A DNA stretch of 64,000 nucleotides, from the sequence record OP978391.1; one strand, given 5' to 3'. The notes below the pieces were generated by a model. It worked only from the letters and a program-made list of their open reading frames with translations. It was not told where the DNA came from and ran no database searches. How positions within the stretch are numbered: position 1 is the first letter of the stretch; each line of letters begins with the position of its first letter. The DNA is from Escherichia phage HP3.2. The translations under genes were made by a program, and so were the position numbers. Of the stretch, positions 33,287-43,773 are shown piece after piece.

Positions 33287-33703
33287 TTAAATGTAAATAT
33301 TTTTGCCGTAATACTTATACCAGTGTGGCTTCATTAAAATTTTTTCATCGAGTCGTTGTTGACTCAACTTAATAGCTGATTTGCATGGATTATAATCATT
33401 TTTCCATTCTACTGGAATATCGCTGATGTCAGGAACTTCAGTATCTTTTATACTGAACCCGCGTTTTAAGCATTCCGTTATAATGTCCGATTGACGCTTT
33501 CGCAAAAATTCTAACTTATCGTAAAAGAAAGTAACATGACCAGAACCTAAAATAAATTTAGAAGATATTTTAAAATCTTTAACGCGCTTACCGTTTGCCA
33601 CATGCTTACGAACTATACCAAAAACACGCGGCAATTCACGGTATTCTGCGATTAAATGTTGATCAGCAAGTTCAGATACTAAAGTCAAATTAATACGAGT
33701 CAT
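33287..33703 (-). CDS. denV: Endonuclease V (pyrimidine-dimer DNA glycosylase)
   Basis: 138-aa [32 protein letters not shown]...; matches T4 DenV from memory. Confidence 0.9.
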
Positions 33704-33721
33704 TTTATCCCTCCAAGTAAC

Positions 33722-33758
33722 TGTGAATATACTATCACAATTCTAGGAGAAAGTAAAC
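33722..33758 (-). promoter_or_regulatory. T4-type early promoter upstream of denV
   Basis: Minus strand reads GTTTAC, spacer, then TGATAGTAT. Confidence 0.4.
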
Positions 33759-33762
33759 AACT

Positions 33763-34293
<531 letters not shown>

Positions 34294-37759: not shown

Positions 37760-38323
37760 TTATTTACCTAGTTTACTTATTATAGCTTCTGCAGCAGCTT
37801 TTAGCTTAGATGCAGTGTTAATACGATTTTTAATTTCAGTATACGCATCGCCAAGAACATCAAGGCTATCAGAATAAACACTTACACTATTGCGTTCGCT
37901 ATTTGAAATAGAACCTTTAGTTTTGCGGTCAAAATCGGTGTACACGTCTTGAAGATCGCGGGCTGCCTTCTTTGCATCATCCAATGCATCAAGAGCTTTA
38001 TTCAAAGCATTAACGTATTTTTTAGTGTCGAACATATTCTTAGAAATTTTAACAGGTGCGCGTTCAGGAGTAGCTAACACAGATTTAGGAACCTGAGCGC
38101 CAGATGCCAATTTCTTAGAAATTTTGAAAAATGCTTTATTGAATTTATTTTCTTGACTCATTGTAAAAGAACTATTATCGATGTTGTACATTTCAATAGC
38201 TTTAGCTTTCCACTTAAGAAAATCGCCGCGGTCTTTTGGGTCCAATTGGAAGAATACTTTAGTAAGATCTGCTTCAGATGGTAATTTTGCTGCTTCGGTT
38301 AAAAATTCGGCATAGGTTTTCAT
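37760..38323 (-). CDS. Internal-protein-like protein with capsid-targeting N-terminus
   Basis: 187-aa ORF starting MKTYAEFLTE, which resembles the T4 internal-protein capsid-targeting sequence MKTYQEFIAE with an LxE cleavage site. Confidence 0.6.
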   Translation of the reverse strand: MKTYAEFLTEAAKLPSEADLTKVFFQLDPKDRGDFLKWKAKAIEMYNIDNSSFTMSQENKFNKAFFKISKKLASGAQVPKSVLATPERAPVKISKNMFDTKKYVNALNKALDALDDAKKAARDLQDVYTDFDRKTKGSISNSERNSVSVYSDSLDVLGDAYTEIKNRINTASKLKAAAEAIISKLGK

Positions 38324-38413
38324 TTAAAATCCTTGAAATAATTTATCGGTTGGTTATTAATTATTTATTACTTTGTTACTATCCGTAACAGCGTTATCCG
38401 AGTGATTCAAACT

Positions 38414-38444
38414 AAAAAGCCCCAACCTTTCGGTCGGGGCTAAG
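38414..38444 (-). terminator. Rho-independent terminator (repeat copy 1)
   Basis: Minus strand reads GCCCCGACCGAAAGGTTGGGGC followed by TTTTT; 31-nt sequence identical to 38971..39001. Confidence 0.6.
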
Positions 38445-38448
38445 AATG

Positions 38449-38922
38449 TCATTTGATTTGTTTAGCAGACCAAATGCGGTCTTTAATAATTTTTTGGATG
38501 TCTTCAACATACTCAAGAGAGTGAACATGTGGATTATCTTTGAAACTATAAGCACGGGCTAACTTTTGGCCTTCGGTTTTGATTACTAAAAGCTCTTTAA
38601 GGATAGCTTCATATTTAGCGATAATTCCTTTAACGATATTTTTTTCTTGTGCCGCTTTAGGATCTGCTTTAGGAGCAGGTTTACCCGAAGCCTTTGCAAA
38701 AGCAGCGCCAGTAGCAACTAAACTTTTCCAGGCCATACTAACTGCATTTCCCGTAAATCCTTCCGCTTTCATGTCGCGTGCAAACTGGAATCGCGATTCA
38801 TCAGAAGCATCTTTATAGGAATATTTACCCGCGGCAATGGCAGCTTTTGCAACAGCTTGAATTTCGGTGCTAGATGCTTCATTTAACACCGCTTCATTTA
38901 AAAATTGAGTATATGATTTCAT
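38449..38922 (-). CDS. Internal-protein-like protein with capsid-targeting N-terminus
   Basis: Start taken at MKSYTQFLNE (157 aa) after AGGAAA; Ala/Lys-rich body; the longer track ORF crosses the promoter and terminator. Confidence 0.55.
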   Translation of the reverse strand: MKSYTQFLNEAVLNEASSTEIQAVAKAAIAAGKYSYKDASDESRFQFARDMKAEGFTGNAVSMAWKSLVATGAAFAKASGKPAPKADPKAAQEKNIVKGIIAKYEAILKELLVIKTEGQKLARAYSFKDNPHVHSLEYVEDIQKIIKDRIWSAKQIK

Positions 38923-38950: not shown

Positions 38951-38970
38951 AATATACTAATATTTATACC
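38951..38970 (-). promoter_or_regulatory. T4 late promoter (TATAAATA) for the 38449..38922 gene
   Basis: Minus strand reads GGTATAAATATTAG, with TATAAATA about 40 nt upstream of the ATG. Confidence 0.55.
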
Positions 38971-39001
38971 AAAAAGCCCCAACCTTTCGGTCGGGGCTAA
39001 G
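38971..39001 (-). terminator. Rho-independent terminator (repeat copy 2)
   Basis: Identical 31-nt hairpin plus U-tract as at 38414..38444. Confidence 0.6.
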
Positions 39002-39305: not shown

Positions 39306-39656
39306 TTAATATTCTTTTAAAGAATCAATATATTCACGGCGTTTACGCCACAAATCAATTGCTTCATACGCGGATTCAGCATTTCGAATTAGCCGGCATT
39401 TATGTAAAGACTTATGATTTTGATATTGTGTAGATAACGGAATTGTATCTAAAAGGTCTTTACGATCAAAATATTTGTAACCATCTAAACCAAATGAACG
39501 ATTTTTGAGAAATTGCCAATGACCATATTCGTTTTCGACATAAACATAATCTGCATGCTGATAAAGCAAATTAATTACACGTTCAGAAATAACAGTATCA
39601 TTATGATTAAAATAGAATGTTAAATCATGAACTACTAAATAAACATTACCTTTCAT
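39306..39656 (-). CDS. Hypothetical protein
   Basis: 116-aa ORF immediately 3' of the tRNA array. Confidence 0.5.
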   Translation of the reverse strand: MKGNVYLVVHDLTFYFNHNDTVISERVINLLYQHADYVYVENEYGHWQFLKNRSFGLDGYKYFDRKDLLDTIPLSTQYQNHKSLHKCRLIRNAESAYEAIDLWRKRREYIDSLKEY

Positions 39657-39664
39657 ATTTTCCT

Positions 39665-39740
39665 CACTTATAATTGGTCGAGGCAGTAGGGATCGAACCT
39701 ACGACCTAGGACTTAGAAGGTCCTTGCTCTTCCTTCTGAG
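39665..39740 (-). tRNA. tRNA-Arg (anticodon UCU)
   Basis: 76-nt cloverleaf folded by hand: acceptor CGGGGCA/TGCCTCG, anticodon loop CUUCUAA, T-loop GGTTCGATCC, encoded CCA. Confidence 0.8.
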
Positions 39741-39744
39741 CTAT

Positions 39745-39820
39745 GCCCCGTAATTGGGGTGACCGATGGGAGTCGAACCCATGACTACGAGAATCACAAT
39801 CTCGAGTTCTACCAACTGAA
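39745..39820 (-). tRNA. tRNA-His (anticodon GUG)
   Basis: 76 nt: acceptor GTGGCCG/CGGTCAC, discriminator C, anticodon loop UUGUGAU, T-loop GGTTCGACTCC, encoded CCA. Confidence 0.7.
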
Positions 39821-39944
39821 CTACGGCCACATTAATACCTACTCCAACAATCAAGATGTCTTCACACGAAATTAAGAGAAGAGTGATCAGTTCAACCCCT
39901 ATAATCGCGTCAAGTAGATATTAATGTGACAGTTGTCACAAATT

Positions 39945-40019
39945 TGGCGGACGTGATAGGATTCGAACCTATAACCAATCGCTTAACAGGCGATCGCTCT
40001 GCCATTGAGCTACACATCC
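39945..40019 (-). tRNA. tRNA-Asn (anticodon GUU)
   Basis: 75 nt: acceptor GGATGTG/CACGTCC, anticodon stem ATCGC/GCGAT, loop CUGUUAA, T-loop GGTTCGAATCC, encoded CCA. Confidence 0.7.
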
Positions 40020-40023
40020 AAAT

Positions 40024-40110
40024 TGGTGGGGAGTGGTGGAGTCGAACCACCCGAGTCGCAATGACAATGAATTTACAGTCCACACCGCTACCTCTACGGG
40101 ATAACTCCCC
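40024..40110 (-). tRNA. tRNA-Tyr (anticodon GUA), long variable arm
   Basis: 87 nt: acceptor GGGGAGT/ACTCCCC, anticodon loop CUGUAAA, variable arm resembling E. coli tRNA-Tyr, T-arm GGTGGTTCGACTCCACC, encoded CCA. Confidence 0.65.
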
Positions 40111-40119
40111 AAATTAATT

Positions 40120-40194
40120 TGGTGGCCCTGGGTGGAATTGAACCACCATCTGGCGATTATGAGTCGCTTGCTTGAACCTTCCAGCTACAGGGCC
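40120..40194 (-). tRNA. tRNA with CAU anticodon (Ile2-lysidine type or Met)
   Basis: 75 nt: acceptor GGCCCTG/CAGGGCC, anticodon loop CUCAUAA, T-loop GGTTCAATTCC; sits where T4 has tRNA-Ile. Confidence 0.7.
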
Positions 40195-40195
40195 T

Positions 40196-40271
40196 TGGTG
40201 CTGATTGACGGAATCGAACCGCCGACCTTCTCATTACAAGTGAGTTGCTCTACCTACTGAGCTAAATCAGC
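40196..40271 (-). tRNA. tRNA-Thr (anticodon UGU)
   Basis: 76 nt: acceptor GCTGATT/AATCAGC, anticodon loop CUUGUAA, encoded CCA. Confidence 0.8.
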
Positions 40272-40276
40272 AAAAC

Positions 40277-40366
40277 TGGCGGAGGCGATAGGATTTGAAC
40301 CTATGAGTCGCCGGAGCGACTGCCGGTTTTCAAGACCGGTGCATTAAACCACTCTGCCACGCCTCC
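40277..40366 (-). tRNA. tRNA-Ser (anticodon UGA), long variable arm
   Basis: 90 nt; sequence GGAGGCGTGGCAGAGTGGTTTAATGCACCGGTCTTGAAAACCGG... matches T4 tRNA-Ser from memory. Confidence 0.85.
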
Positions 40367-40368
40367 AG

Positions 40369-40442
40369 TCTCCGTGGCAGGATTTGAACCTACGACATTC
40401 TGCTCCCAAAGCAGACGCTCTACCAAACTGAGCTACACGGAG
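40369..40442 (-). tRNA. tRNA-Pro (anticodon UGG), CCA not encoded
   Basis: 74 nt: acceptor CTCCGTG/CACGGAG, anticodon loop UUUGGGA; ends 2 nt before tRNA-Ser with no CCA (Pro-Ser dimeric precursor layout). Confidence 0.8.
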
Positions 40443-40452
40443 TAAATTAAAT

Positions 40453-40526
<74 letters not shown>

Positions 40527-40531
40527 AAATT

Positions 40532-40618
40532 TGGTGCGAGAAGTGGGACTCGAACCCACAAGGAAATCATTCCGCAGCATTTTAAGTGCTGTGCCTTTAC
40601 CAATTTGGCCATTCTCGC
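40532..40618 (-). tRNA. tRNA-Leu (anticodon UAA), long variable arm
   Basis: 87 nt GCGAGAATGGCCAAATTGGTAAAGGCACAGCACTTAAAATGCTGCGG...; matches T4 tRNA-Leu from memory. Confidence 0.85.
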
Positions 40619-40619
40619 G

Positions 40620-40692
40620 CTGGGAATAAAGGACTCGAACCTTTGCATCCTGGAATCAAAATCCAGTGCCTTACCAACTTGGCTAATTCCCA
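40620..40692 (-). tRNA. tRNA-Gln (anticodon UUG), CCA not encoded
   Basis: 73 nt: acceptor TGGGAAT/ATTCCCA, anticodon loop UUUUGAU; abuts tRNA-Leu with a 1-nt spacer (Gln-Leu dimer layout). Confidence 0.8.
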
Positions 40693-41079: not shown

Positions 41080-41478
41080 TCAGCCTTCATCAACAATAGT
41101 GTGAGTATTAGCATTTACGATTTGCCACCAATCAAAGCGATTAGAATCCATCGGTTTGTTTTCATTTTCTTTGATAATGTCACGGAGTTCATCTTCAGAG
41201 AATGCTTTAGCAATTAAATCGGTATACCCACCACGGGGATAATAATTATCACCTGCAAACAAAAGGAAATTTACCTTCCCGGAAGCAACATATGCTTCCT
41301 TAGGATACTTGTTTCCTGCGTGGTCAACCACTTCAATATAACGGTAAGGAATATCGGTTCTTTCAACCCATTGCCATGCCGCCGCAGGGGAATCGAAAGC
41401 ATCTACACCTAAACGATTATCTTCATCTTTAGACGGATTATTTTCGTAATCCGCATATACATAATATTCAACGTTCAT
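41080..41478 (-). CDS. Hypothetical protein
   Basis: 132-aa ORF. Confidence 0.5.
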   Translation of the reverse strand: MNVEYYVYADYENNPSKDEDNRLGVDAFDSPAAAWQWVERTDIPYRYIEVVDHAGNKYPKEAYVASGKVNFLLFAGDNYYPRGGYTDLIAKAFSEDELRDIIKENENKPMDSNRFDWWQIVNANTHTIVDEG

Positions 41479-41663
41479 TATTCACCTTTAGAAATTTTAT
41501 CCATAACAATAGCAATTAAACCAATTAAAAATGCTACTACAAGTGAAAACACATTTTCTGCTGTAGTCAATAATCCACATATAAATCCAACAAACATTGA
41601 AAAACTAAAAGCGGAAGCAGAAATTGCAATAGCAACATTTCGAATTAATTCACAACGTTTCAT
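41478..41663 (-). CDS. Small membrane protein
   Basis: 61-aa ORF with two hydrophobic segments. Confidence 0.45.
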   Translation of the reverse strand: MKRCELIRNVAIAISASAFSFSMFVGFICGLLTTAENVFSLVVAFLIGLIAIVMDKISKGE

Positions 41664-41680
41664 TTTATTCTCCTCAGTAG

Positions 41681-41721
41681 TAGATAGGGTAATAGTATCA
41701 CTACCCTATCTAAAAGTAAAC
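41681..41721 (-). promoter_or_regulatory. Early promoter overlapped by a stem-loop
   Basis: Minus strand reads GTTTAC, spacer, then TACTAT, lying within inverted repeat AGATAGGGTA...TACCCTATCT. Confidence 0.45.
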
Positions 41722-41955
41722 TTATTTTTTACGAAAAATTGATTTATTTTCTGCTGCCCATTTTTCAATAACTGCAGCAGGACCAGTAACAACAATTTTA
41801 TCACCGTAATCTTCTGCGGCGAGTTGACCGAAATTATCTAATGCATCACGAAGAACTCCATGAGGCATTTCACCCATTTTATCTTTCTTGCCAATGTAAA
41901 TAAACTCAACTTTTACATCAGCAGTTTCAGCAATAAATTCTTGGTAAGTTTTCAT
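41722..41955 (-). CDS. Internal-protein-like protein with capsid-targeting N-terminus (ipI-locus type)
   Basis: Start at MKTYQEFIAE, identical to the T4 internal-protein capsid-targeting sequence as recalled; 77 aa. Confidence 0.65.
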   Translation of the reverse strand: MKTYQEFIAETADVKVEFIYIGKKDKMGEMPHGVLRDALDNFGQLAAEDYGDKIVVTGPAAVIEKWAAENKSIFRKK

Positions 41956-41980
41956 TTTGATTTCCATTTGGTTTTGTTTT

Positions 41981-42019
41981 GATAAGGTAATAGTATCACA
42001 ACTAAAACCCTATGTAAAC
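41981..42019 (-). promoter_or_regulatory. Early promoter overlapped by a stem-loop
   Basis: Minus strand reads GTTTAC, 18 nt, then TACTAT, with a flanking inverted repeat. Confidence 0.45.
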
Positions 42020-42031
42020 AACTTTGTGAAA

Positions 42032-42289
42032 TTATTTTAAATCTTCTAATCGTTTCTTCATCTTAGAACCATTTTTAGCAATTTCTCCTGCATCGGAGCA
42101 TAATGCTAAAAGTGCTTTAACTTTAGTTTGGTCTCCTTTAAAAGATGAAGGATCGACCGCAGCAGCAAGTTCTTTAATACGAGAGAAAAGACGCTCAGCT
42201 TCAGCTAAAGCCATTCCAAGCTTTACTTCCATACCGTGGGAAGATTCAGTGATAGTAGTTTTTGTAGCAAACTCTTTGAAAGTTTTCAT
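42032..42289 (-). CDS. Internal-protein-like protein with capsid-targeting N-terminus
   Basis: 85-aa ORF starting MKTFKEFATKTTITE. Confidence 0.55.
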   Translation of the reverse strand: MKTFKEFATKTTITESSHGMEVKLGMALAEAERLFSRIKELAAAVDPSSFKGDQTKVKALLALCSDAGEIAKNGSKMKKRLEDLK

Positions 42290-42310
42290 TTTTATTTTCC
42301 TAATTAATTT

Positions 42311-42350
42311 TGATGAGGTAATAGTATCACTACCTCATCAGTATGTAAAC
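42311..42350 (-). promoter_or_regulatory. Early promoter overlapped by a stem-loop
   Basis: Minus strand reads GTTTAC, 18 nt, then TACTAT; inverted repeat TGATGAGGTA...TACCTCATCA spans spacer and -10. Confidence 0.5.
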
Positions 42351-42362
42351 AACTTTGTGAAA

Positions 42363-43047
<685 letters not shown>

Positions 43048-43048
<1 letters not shown>

Positions 43049-43773
43049 TATAGTACCTTTAGTGTATTTTTAATTTTAGAAAAAAGTTCTTCAAGAGAAC
43101 CATCGTTTGTAATTACTAAATCGCCATCACGAATTGGCAATCCAGCTTCTGTAATATGTGTATCATTGGATTTTTGGCCAGGACGAACTACATGAATTAC
43201 TGTAGCACCCATCGCCCTAGCCGCATCCATTTCATGATCTTGACGGGTATCAGGAACGATATAATAATCATAACCTGAGTTAAATTTATCAAGATAATCT
43301 AAAGAAAATAATTTTACCCAGTACATGCGGTCGAAGTTATTAACAATCAAATCCGTACCTAGGGCTTGCATCAGACGACGGACTGACCATTGATCTTCAA
43401 TATTATTTATAACGTCAGTAATTTTGTTAAATGCTACGAAATTAACTGATTCTTTTCCTTCGTCATCAAAAACAAACACACCTTTAATTGGGCTTTTACC
43501 ATTAAGATAGCAAAATGCTTGTTCCATAATCATAATTACTTCTAATTTAGTCAAATTCAAATTAGTCTCACGATCATAGTCAATTCCTTCAAACTCTCTA
43601 CGAGTTAAGCAAGGATAGTCAGTGTTTGCTGCAAATACACCCCATGCATAAGCCAATGCATCTTTAATAGGACCAGCAAGTTGATATTTAACTGCAGAAT
43701 AATTATTCATGATAAAATCTGCAGTAGTATCTTTTCCACTACGCTTTACACCACTTAAAAAGATTAGTTTCAT
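43048..43773 (-). CDS. 1: dNMP kinase gp1
   Basis: 241-aa ORF MKLIFLSGVKRSGKDTTADFIMNNYS... with P-loop; matches T4 gp1 from memory. Confidence 0.9.

What the first reader, a model, noticed from the sequence alone, without database searches (positions are those of the whole stretch)
41722..42289. ipI-type locus with two further capsid-targeted small proteins
Directly upstream of 57B are two small ORFs starting MKTYQEFIAE (77 aa) and MKTFKEFATKTTITE (85 aa), each behind its own early promoter with a stem-loop. This is the position of the hypervariable ipI locus in T-even phages. Together with the 37760..38922 pair, the phage encodes four candidate injected proteins.
Basis: partly seen in the sequence, partly recalled or inferred. 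Interest (0 to 1): 0.55.

Follow-up and report, generated by a model that had tools for sequence, protein, structure and literature searches.

The report
Known T-even internal-protein genes ip5 and ip6

Summary
Two minus-strand ORFs, 42032-42289 (85 aa, MKTFKEF...ITE) and 41722-41955 (77 aa, MKTYQEFIAE), lie between 57B (Acb1) and the trna.4 homolog. This is where T4 carries ipI. In the direction of transcription they are downstream of 57B, not upstream.

Each follows a T4-type early promoter whose -10 box sits in a hairpin. A third such cassette closes the locus.

They are not new. The 85-aa protein is Ip5: 100% identical to T6, 98.6% to T2, and named in RB70 and RB32. The 77-aa protein is Ip6: 97% identical to T6, and named ipVI in phage PST and ip6 in VR20. 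The whole 722-nt locus is 99% identical to T6, and about 200 sequenced phages share the arrangement.

The mature domains are unrelated to T4 IPI, IPII or IPIII and have no homologs outside T4-like phages. Models give a helical hairpin for Ip5 and a generic ferredoxin-like fold for Ip6. Both genes are under purifying selection, and the locus varies by cassette swapping at the repeated promoter-hairpin sequences.

The most likely function is a capsid-packaged, gp21-trimmed, injected anti-defence protein, probably aimed at a type IV (GmrSD-family) restriction variant. T6 carries both proteins and is still restricted by GmrSD-ECOR21 and GmrSD-ECOR17, so those two are unlikely targets. Novelty: already known. 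Interest: low.

The parts
42363..42821 (-). 57B (anti-CBASS Acb1), the conserved left flank of the ipI locus
   Evidence: Pfam PF23474 Acb1, E 2.7e-60. Syntenic with T4 57B.
42308..42378 (-). Cassette P1: early promoter (-35 TTTACA 42349-42344, -10 TACTAT 42326-42321, extended TG) with a 10-bp perfect stem (42311-42320 / 42331-42340) whose loop holds the -10 box. The repeat starts in the last codons (DLK*) of 57B.
   Evidence: It is 100% identical over 96 nt to the cassette in front of T4 ipI.
42032..42289 (-). ip5, 85 aa. Leader MKTFKEFATKTTITE (42245-42289), predicted gp21 cleavage after E15, mature 70 aa with pI 9.2.
   Evidence: phrog_3499 'internal head protein', E 1.2e-49. Identical to T6 Ip5, 98.6% to T2 Ip5, and named Ip5 in RB70 and RB32. 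AF2 model is a helical hairpin, pLDDT 71. dN/dS 0.06 or lower against close alleles.
41977..42047 (-). Cassette P2: 87% identical to P1 over 71 nt, with the same -35/-10 (42018-41990) and an imperfect stem. The repeat starts in the last codons (DLK*) of ip5.
   Evidence: The left half is shared with the T4 pre-trna.4 and T2 pre-ip7 cassettes while the right halves differ.
41722..41955 (-). ip6, 77 aa. Leader MKTYQEFIAE (41926-41955), predicted cleavage after E10, mature 67 aa with pI 6.5.
   Evidence: phrog_8111 'internal virion protein', E 2.7e-52. 97% identical to T6 Ip6. Called ipVI in PST and ip6 in VR20. AF2 model is a ferredoxin-like alpha/beta fold, pLDDT 83.
41681..41721 (-). Cassette P3: GTTTAC-N15-TGATACTAT (41721-41692) with an 11-bp perfect stem (41681-41691 / 41702-41712). 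It lies in front of the trna.4 homolog and closes the locus.
41478..41663 (-). trna.4 homolog (61-aa membrane protein), the conserved right flank
   Evidence: phrog_1692. Syntenic with T4, T2 and T6 trna.4.

Best explanation
The locus is the ipI-type internal-protein locus of a Tequatrovirus, carrying the known alleles ip5 and ip6 in the T6 configuration.

Shown here: each gene is a self-contained cassette made of a T4-type early promoter with a hairpin over its -10 box, a ribosome-binding site and an ORF. The ORFs begin with the T4 capsid targeting sequence followed by an (I/L/T)-x-E site.

Inferred from established T4 biology (Mullaney and Black 1996, as summarised in PMC9026906): the leader takes the protein into the prohead scaffolding core. 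The prohead protease gp21 then removes it, after E15 in Ip5 and after E10 in Ip6. The roughly 7.5-kDa mature proteins stay in the DNA-filled head and are injected with the DNA.

Inferred by analogy with T4 Ip1, Ip2 and Ip3 (PMC12373910): once in the cell, each protein binds and blocks one particular host defence that acts on entering glucosyl-hmC DNA, most probably a GmrSD-family type IV restriction enzyme. That enzyme would differ from GmrSD-ECOR21 and GmrSD-ECOR17.

Shown here: the locus varies between phages by whole-cassette replacement, through recombination in the near-identical promoter-hairpin repeats. It does not vary by fast point mutation.

My graded belief: the genes are Ip5 and Ip6, about 0.97. 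They are packaged, processed and injected, about 0.85. They have an anti-defence role, about 0.7. The target is a GmrSD-family enzyme, about 0.45.
For: Identity. The Ip5 mature domain is at least 90% identical in 268 phage records, including T2, T6, RB3 and RB32, several of them annotated Ip5. UniProt Q38378 is 'Ip5, phage RB70'. Ip6 is found in 230 records, annotated ip6 or ipVI in some. The T6 record notes 'Ip5 ... replaces ipI' and 'Ip6'. The locus is 99% identical to T6 over 722 nt.

Targeting and processing. The Ip6 leader matches T4 IPII/IPIII at 10 of 10 positions, and the Ip5 leader resembles the IPI leader. Almost all of the 66 leader-bearing proteins compared have an (aliphatic)-x-E ending at residue 10. 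The Ip5 mature domain occurs behind different leaders: two of them (the 15-aa window leader and the 10-aa leader in L020) join it at the same residue...E|SSHG, and RB69ORF127c carries a third, unrelated 15-aa leader.

Real genes. dN/dS is 0.06-0.24 for Ip5, with dS 0.23 and no amino-acid substitutions against T2. It is 0.17-0.34 for Ip6 against divergent alleles.

Cassette exchange. P1 is identical to the cassette in front of T4 ipI although the gene behind it differs. The cassettes are mosaics with breakpoints at the invariant GTGATACTATTACC. The locus holds 0-4 genes from about 17 families in 36 contigs. The RB69 Ip5 homolog sits in the other IP locus, between e and denV.

Function by analogy. 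T4 Ip1, Ip2 and Ip3 each block one GmrSD variant, and the authors propose the same for all genes of the two Ip loci (PMC12373910). IPIII works in the cytoplasm without its leader (PMC9391042).
Against: I found no direct evidence that Ip5 or Ip6 is in virions or is injected, and no accessible proteomics.

No target is known. T6 carries Ip5 (100% identical) and Ip6 (97% identical), and T2 carries Ip5. Both phages are nevertheless restricted by GmrSD-ECOR21 and GmrSD-ECOR17 (PMC12373910). From memory of Bair and Black 2007, which I could not read, they are also restricted by the CT596 enzyme. Two, and probably all three, of the characterised GmrSD variants are therefore not neutralised.

No late promoter (TATAAATA) lies directly upstream of either gene. 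Synthesis at the time of prohead assembly must therefore rely on read-through or continued early-promoter use. I did not test this.

The folds give no hint of mechanism.
Confidence: 0.6

Rival explanations
1. Ip5 and/or Ip6 are injected anti-defence proteins whose target is not a GmrSD enzyme. The target would be another first-response system that meets incoming modified DNA, for example an hmC-directed glycosylase, BREX or another type IV family.
For: T6 and T2 carry these proteins and are still restricted by GmrSD-ECOR21 and GmrSD-ECOR17. The mature domains share nothing with Ip1, Ip2 or Ip3. The neighbouring gene 57B is an anti-CBASS enzyme, so the region is not devoted to one defence. A new hmC-directed glycosylase defence against T-even phages has been reported recently (listed, not read).
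Against: All three T4 Ips that have been characterised hit GmrSD variants, and GmrSD is extremely diverse (PMC12373910). A miss on two or three variants therefore says little.
Confidence: 0.25
2. They are mainly structural or physical components of the packaged head. They would act as small core-filling or DNA-charge-neutralising proteins with no specific host target, and the allelic diversity would be neutral turnover.
For: T4 heads hold about 1000 internal protein molecules, and their lysines contact DNA phosphates (PMC3012670). Mature Ip5 is basic and lysine-rich, with pI 9.2 and 13 K+R in 70 residues.
Against: Mature Ip6 is near neutral, pI 6.5. Each allele is under strong purifying selection over its whole length, which is unexpected for a mere counter-ion. 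Unrelated folds occupy the same slot, and some phages have none there. T4 Ip1-3 have specific targets.
Confidence: 0.1
3. They are early cytoplasmic proteins that keep a vestigial leader and are not packaged. They would act only after gene expression.
For: Only early-type promoters lie directly upstream, and no late promoter motif does.
Against: The leader is conserved across about 17 unrelated families, including the residues known to matter for targeting (4 and 7) and for processing (8 and 10) (PMC9026906). T4 ipI has the identical upstream cassette, and its product is packaged.
Confidence: 0.05

Closest known systems
Ip5 of phages T2, T6, RB70, RB32 (Repoila et al. 1994 nomenclature)
   Same: Same protein: 100% identical to T6, 98.6% to T2 and 92% to RB70. 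Same position directly after 57B.
   Different: Nothing of substance. More distant homologs (about 54% identity), such as RB69ORF127c, sit in the other IP locus behind a different leader.
Ip6 of phages T6, PST (ipVI), VR20/VR7
   Same: 97% identical to T6 and 95.5% to PST in the mature part, 77% to VR20 over the full length. Same position before trna.4. The predicted fold matches the BFVD model of VR7 Ip6, TM 0.96.
   Different: Two conservative substitutions relative to T6 (I21T, V62I).
T4 IPI / IPI* (Ip1), inhibitor of GmrSD-CT596
   Same: Same genomic slot, an identical upstream promoter-hairpin cassette, and a similar leader (MKTFKEF...ITE) in Ip5. Similar size, and for Ip5 a similar basic pI.
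   Different: The mature domains are unrelated in sequence; BLASTP aligns only the leader region (residues 1-26 for Ip5, 1-14 for Ip6). Ip5 is modelled as all-helical and Ip6 as ferredoxin-like, whereas IPI* is described as two beta sheets flanked by helices (PMC3012670). T6 and T2 lack IPI; from memory, not checked here, they are restricted by the CT596 enzyme.
T4 IPII and IPIII (Ip2, Ip3), inhibitors of GmrSD-ECOR21 and GmrSD-ECOR17
   Same: The Ip6 leader MKTYQEFIAE is identical. Same logic of an injected small protein.
   Different: Different locus: T4 ipII and ipIII lie between denV and e, a site that is empty in this phage. The mature domains are unrelated. Phages carrying Ip5 and Ip6 are not protected from those two enzymes.
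PeSL / PeSL-like promoter-stem-loop cassettes of T4-type phages (Arbiol 2010; Comeau 2014; first seen at the IP loci by Repoila 1994)
   Same: A near-identical early promoter plus stem-loop flanks each variable gene. TTTACA-N17-TACTAT fits the PST/T4 consensus TTTACW-N17-TAYWAT. The mosaic breakpoints are consistent with recombination in the repeats.
   Different: The stems are AT-rich and lack the polyG/polyC stems of the RB49-type PeSLs, as the literature already notes. There is no T-run after the stem, so they are not canonical intrinsic terminators.

Membership tests
T4-type internal head proteins (leader-bearing injected proteins) | N-terminal capsid targeting sequence of about 10 residues, with aromatic residues at positions 4 and 7 | tested here: met
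   Ip6 MKTYQEFIAE matches T4 IPII/IPIII at 10 of 10 positions. Ip5 MKTFKEF matches the first 7 residues of T4 IPI. The roles of the residues come from PMC9026906.
T4-type internal head proteins (leader-bearing injected proteins) | gp21 prohead-protease site (aliphatic-x-Glu) at the end of the leader | tested here: met
   IAE at residues 8-10 in Ip6 and ITE at 13-15 in Ip5. T4 IPI has ITE at 17-19. The Ip5 mature domain joins two different leaders at the same residue...E|SSHG. Cleavage itself was not observed.
T4-type internal head proteins (leader-bearing injected proteins) | Encoded in one of the IP loci (57B-trna.4, or denV-e) | tested here: met
   Between 57B and trna.4, syntenic with T4 ipI, T2 ip5-ip7 and T6 ip5-ip6.
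T4-type internal head proteins (leader-bearing injected proteins) | Physically present in the mature head and injected with the DNA | not testable with these tools
   Needs virion mass spectrometry or injection assays. No published data were found.
Ip5 / Ip6 orthologous groups | Full-length similarity of the mature domain to the named proteins | tested here: met
   Ip5 is 100% identical to T6 and 92% to RB70 (Q38378). Ip6 is 97% identical to T6 and 77% to VR20 'Ip6'. phrog_3499 and phrog_8111 match end to end.
T4 IPI (Ip1) family | Homology of the mature (IPI*) domain | tested here: not met
   BLASTP aligns only the leader region. In clustering of leader-stripped sequences, IPI groups with one other protein and not with Ip5 or Ip6.
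GmrSD (type IV restriction) inhibitors | Relieves restriction by a GmrSD-family enzyme | not testable with these tools
   Indirect negative evidence exists for two variants. T6 (Ip5 and Ip6) and T2 (Ip5) are restricted by GmrSD-ECOR21 and GmrSD-ECOR17 (PMC12373910; alleles).
PeSL-like promoter-stem-loop cassettes | Early promoter overlapped by a stem-loop, repeated nearly identically around variable genes | tested here: met
   Three copies, 74-87% identical to one another, with z-scores of -3.3 to -5.2. The motif is enriched 10 against 0.23 expected.

The most novel reading that the evidence does not exclude
Ip5 or Ip6 neutralises a host immune system that is not yet linked to any phage inhibitor. 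This could be an uncharacterised GmrSD clade or a non-GmrSD sensor of glucosyl-hmC DNA. Each protein would then define a new anti-defence family with its own fold and would explain part of the host range of T6-like and HP3-like therapeutic phages.
Probability: 0.3. Interest if true: 0.5.

Novelty: already known. Interest (0 to 1): 0.15.

Why it matters
For genome annotation the locus adds nothing. It is the T6 allele combination of a hotspot described in 1994.

Its remaining value is practical. Ip5 and Ip6 are among the most common internal-protein alleles in sequenced Tequatrovirus phages, with about 270 and 230 records. Those phages include therapy candidates such as HP3, yet neither protein has a known target. 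T4 Ip1-3 were recently shown to be variant-specific GmrSD inhibitors, so Ip5 and Ip6 are obvious next candidates for finding which host defences limit T6-type phages.

This analysis narrows the search in two ways. GmrSD-ECOR21 and GmrSD-ECOR17 are unlikely targets. The alleles are conserved modules moved by cassette exchange rather than fast-evolving sequences.

Tried and rejected
Profile libraries. Pfam, NCBIfam and PADLOC gave nothing above noise for either protein. A PDB sequence search found no relatives.

Remote homologs. A full HMMER search of 1.84 billion representative proteins with an Ip6 profile found 5 clusters. The three read over their N-terminus (P0018, P0019, P0020) carry the leader, as does the alignment member P0011; P0017 is an N-terminally truncated fragment. 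I found no cellular homolog and therefore no hint of origin.

Late promoter. The nearest upstream TATAAATA on the coding strand is inside gene 1 at 43404-43411. None lies in the cassettes.

Terminator reading of the hairpins. The scan found no canonical terminator and no T-run.

Literature. Repoila 1994, Bair 2007 and Rifat 2008 are not held. A search on 'ip5' and 'ip6' returned only inositol-phosphate papers. The T4 omics paper, the BASEL paper and the Durham collection paper say nothing about these proteins. No virion proteomics for Ip5 or Ip6 was found.

One pattern search used the wrong spacer length and found nothing. It was corrected.

The idea that these are orthologs of T4 IPI was tested and rejected.

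Full report
**What is there.** The window is a Tequatrovirus genome segment. Bases 41400-42900 are 99.9% identical to Escherichia phage HP3 and to many other T4-like coliphages. All genes from 40.7 to 45.3 kb are on the minus strand. In the direction of transcription they are:
- gp2, gp3, gp1 (dNMP kinase) and 57A;
- 57B (42363-42821; Pfam Acb1, E 2.7e-60);
- an 85-aa ORF (42032-42289);
- a 77-aa ORF (41722-41955);
- homologs of T4 trna.4, trna.3 and trna.2;
- a cluster of 11 tRNA genes.

T4 has the same frame, with the single gene ipI between 57B and trna.4. The only slip is 'upstream of 57B': the ORFs are downstream of it in the direction of transcription.

**Is it more than chance?** A six-frame scan for the leader motif finds exactly four ORFs in 64 kb. 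All are on the coding strand and all are real ORFs of 77-187 aa.

Each of the two ORFs is preceded by TTTACA-17 nt-TACTAT with an extended-10 TG. The stricter motif GTTTAC-N15-TGATACTAT occurs ten times in the window, always on the minus strand, against 0.23 expected. Three perfect copies sit at this locus: before the 85-aa ORF, before the 77-aa ORF, and after it in front of trna.4.

In each cassette the -10 box lies in the loop of a hairpin. The first and third have perfect 10- and 11-bp stems, and the middle one has an imperfect stem. Predicted energies are -17.4, -15.4 and -18.5 kcal/mol, with z-scores of -5.2, -3.6 and -3.3. None is followed by a T-run, so they are not canonical terminators. 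The first two cassettes are 87% identical over 71 nt. The repeat begins inside the last codons (Asp-Leu-Lys-stop) of the preceding gene, both in 57B and in the 85-aa ORF.

**What the proteins are.** Both are already named.

The 85-aa protein is Ip5:
- Its mature part is at least 90% identical in 268 phage records, including T2 (98.6%), T6, RB3 and RB32 (100%). Several of these are annotated 'Ip5 internal head protein'.
- The protein database returns 'Ip5, Enterobacteria phage RB70' (UniProt Q38378) and 'Ip5 internal head protein' of T2.

The 77-aa protein is Ip6. It is found in 230 phage records and is annotated 'ipVI' in Yersinia phage PST and 'ip6' in VR20, VR26 and fFiEco06.

The GenBank record of classical phage T6 has 57B, then Ip5 ('replaces ipI'), then Ip6, then trna.4. 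The window's 722-nt locus is 99% identical to T6 at the DNA level. Ip5 is identical and Ip6 differs at two residues. T2 has ip5 followed by ip7. About 200 phage records cover at least 80% of the 1.5-kb query that spans both genes and their flanks. PHROGs places the two proteins end to end in 'internal head protein' and 'internal virion protein' families.

**Relation to the T4 internal proteins.**
- The Ip6 leader MKTYQEFIAE is identical to that of T4 IPII and IPIII.
- The Ip5 leader MKTFKEFATKTTITE resembles the 19-residue IPI leader MKTFKEFTSTTTPVSTITE.
- Beyond the leaders nothing aligns.

According to the review of Black's work (PMC9026906), residues 4 and 7 of the leader carry the targeting function and residues 8 and 10 carry the processing function. 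All four are present here.

I compared 66 leader-bearing proteins: those from 36 IMG/VR contigs anchored on 57B, plus the T4, T2, RB69 and window proteins. Almost all have an aliphatic-x-Glu motif ending at residue 10. The Ip5 mature domain occurs behind three different leaders. These are the 15-aa IPI-like leader here, a 10-aa MKTYQTFMTE in contig L020, and a 15-aa MKTYMNFYQNLSLNE in RB69. The first two join the mature domain at the same residue (...E|SSHG...), which supports the predicted cleavage point; the RB69 junction is not the same sequence.

**The mature domains.**
- Ip5 (70 aa, pI 9.2) is modelled as a two-helix hairpin (pLDDT 71).
- Ip6 (67 aa, pI 6.5) is modelled as a small beta-alpha-beta sandwich (pLDDT 83).
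- Foldseek against viral models finds only Ip6 itself and two weak T4-like phage proteins for Ip6, and nothing for Ip5.
- Pfam, NCBIfam, PADLOC and PDB sequence searches are empty.
- A full HMMER scan of 1.84 billion representative proteins with an Ip6 profile returns five clusters. Those with an intact N-terminus carry the leader, so I see the family only in T4-like phages.

**How the locus evolves.** In the 36 contigs the space between 57B and trna.4 holds zero to four leader-bearing genes, drawn from about 17 mutually unrelated families. Yet each allele is conserved:
- Ip5 in the window and in T2 differs at synonymous sites (dS 0.23) with no amino-acid substitution.
- dN/dS is 0.06 for Ip5 and 0.17 for Ip6 against the alleles in L020.
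- dN/dS is 0.24 and 0.34 against the most distant homologs.

Variation is therefore by replacement of whole cassettes.

The cassette alignment shows how this happens. The cassette before ip5 is 100% identical over 96 nt to the one before T4 ipI, although the genes behind them are unrelated. The left half of the cassette before ip6 is shared with the T4 cassette before trna.4 and with the T2 cassette before ip7, while the right halves differ. The switch point is the invariant GTGATACTATTACC, that is, the -10 box and the loop.

The RB69 homolog of Ip5 sits in the other IP locus, between e and denV, so modules also move between loci. This is what Repoila et al. (1994) described, and what Arbiol et al. 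(2010) and Comeau et al. (2014) generalised as PeSL-mediated shuffling. The promoter here fits their PST/T4 consensus TTTACW-N17-TAYWAT.

**Likely mechanism.** By inference from T4, the leader directs each protein into the prohead core, gp21 removes it, and the mature protein is injected with the DNA.

T4 Ip1, Ip2 and Ip3 each inhibit one GmrSD-family type IV restriction enzyme without cross-protection. Silas et al. (2025) propose that all genes in the two Ip loci do the same for other variants. Srikant et al. showed that IPIII acts in the cytoplasm even without its leader. I adopt that as the most likely function.

The data add one constraint. T6 carries both Ip5 and Ip6, and T2 carries Ip5. 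Both phages are restricted by GmrSD-ECOR21 and GmrSD-ECOR17 in that paper. From memory of Bair and Black 2007, which I could not read, they are also restricted by the CT596 enzyme. The characterised variants are therefore not the targets.

Rival readings, in decreasing order of belief, are:
- a non-GmrSD defence as the target;
- a mainly physical role in the packed head, which fits basic Ip5 but not near-neutral Ip6 or the strong purifying selection;
- non-packaged early proteins.

One open point is expression timing. No late promoter motif lies in front of either gene. T4 ipI has the identical upstream cassette, and its product is packaged, so this is not specific to Ip5 and Ip6.

**Verdict.** What remains unknown is the host target of Ip5 and Ip6. 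That question is already posed in the literature, and the experiments listed under next steps can address it.

Noticed in passing
window 37760-38323 (-) and 38449-38922 (-): The other pair of leader-bearing ORFs (187 aa MKTYAEFLTEA..., 157 aa MKSYTQFLNEA...) lies at a third site, between the e.x genes and the tRNA cluster. That is in neither of the two classical IP loci. Both match phrog_2280 'unknown function'. The 187-aa protein is annotated 'hypothetical protein' in all 40 records sampled from the 164 phage records that carry it. Unlike ip5 and ip6, these look like unannotated internal-protein candidates.
   Followed up: partly
window 38414-38443 and 38971-39000 (-); 38961-38968 (-): The 157-aa leader-bearing ORF is bracketed by two identical 30-nt GC-rich hairpin-plus-T-run elements (TTAGCCCCGACCGAAAGGTTGGGGCTTTTT; 2 copies against 0 expected). 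A late-promoter motif TATAAATA lies just upstream. This is a different kind of flanking cassette from the early-promoter hairpins at the ipI locus.
   Followed up: partly
window 33287-34257: denV (33287-33703) and e lysozyme (33763-34257) are adjacent with only about 60 nt between them. The classical ipII/ipIII locus of T4 is therefore empty in this phage.
   Followed up: partly
L005 (RB69) 2438-2719: RB69ORF127c, annotated as hypothetical, is a roughly 54% identical homolog of the Ip5 mature domain. It has a different 15-aa leader and sits in the e-denV locus. About 226 Mosigvirus-type records carry it.
   Followed up: partly
window 42363-42821: 57B is annotated 'RNA ligase' in RefSeq and PHROGs but matches Pfam Acb1 (anti-CBASS phosphodiesterase) at E 2.7e-60. 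The ipI locus is therefore directly downstream of another counter-defence gene.
   Followed up: no
window 39306-39656 (-) and 39675-40692: A 116-aa ORF (phrog_3355, unknown function) and an extra tRNA-His make this region about 550 nt longer than in the otherwise near-identical phage JK08. There are 11 tRNA genes here, against 10 in JK08 and 8 in T4.
   Followed up: no
NC_041919.1 (HP3 RefSeq record): The taxonomy line of the HP3 RefSeq record reads 'Rosemountvirus'. The sequence is a Tequatrovirus, 99.9% identical to this window and syntenic with T4 and T6. This looks like a database labelling error.
   Followed up: no
window 41956-41967: Gene callers disagree on the ip6 start: 81 aa from ATG 41967 in HP3 RefSeq against 77 aa in JK08 and T6. 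The longer form would bury the targeting leader behind MEIK.
   Followed up: partly
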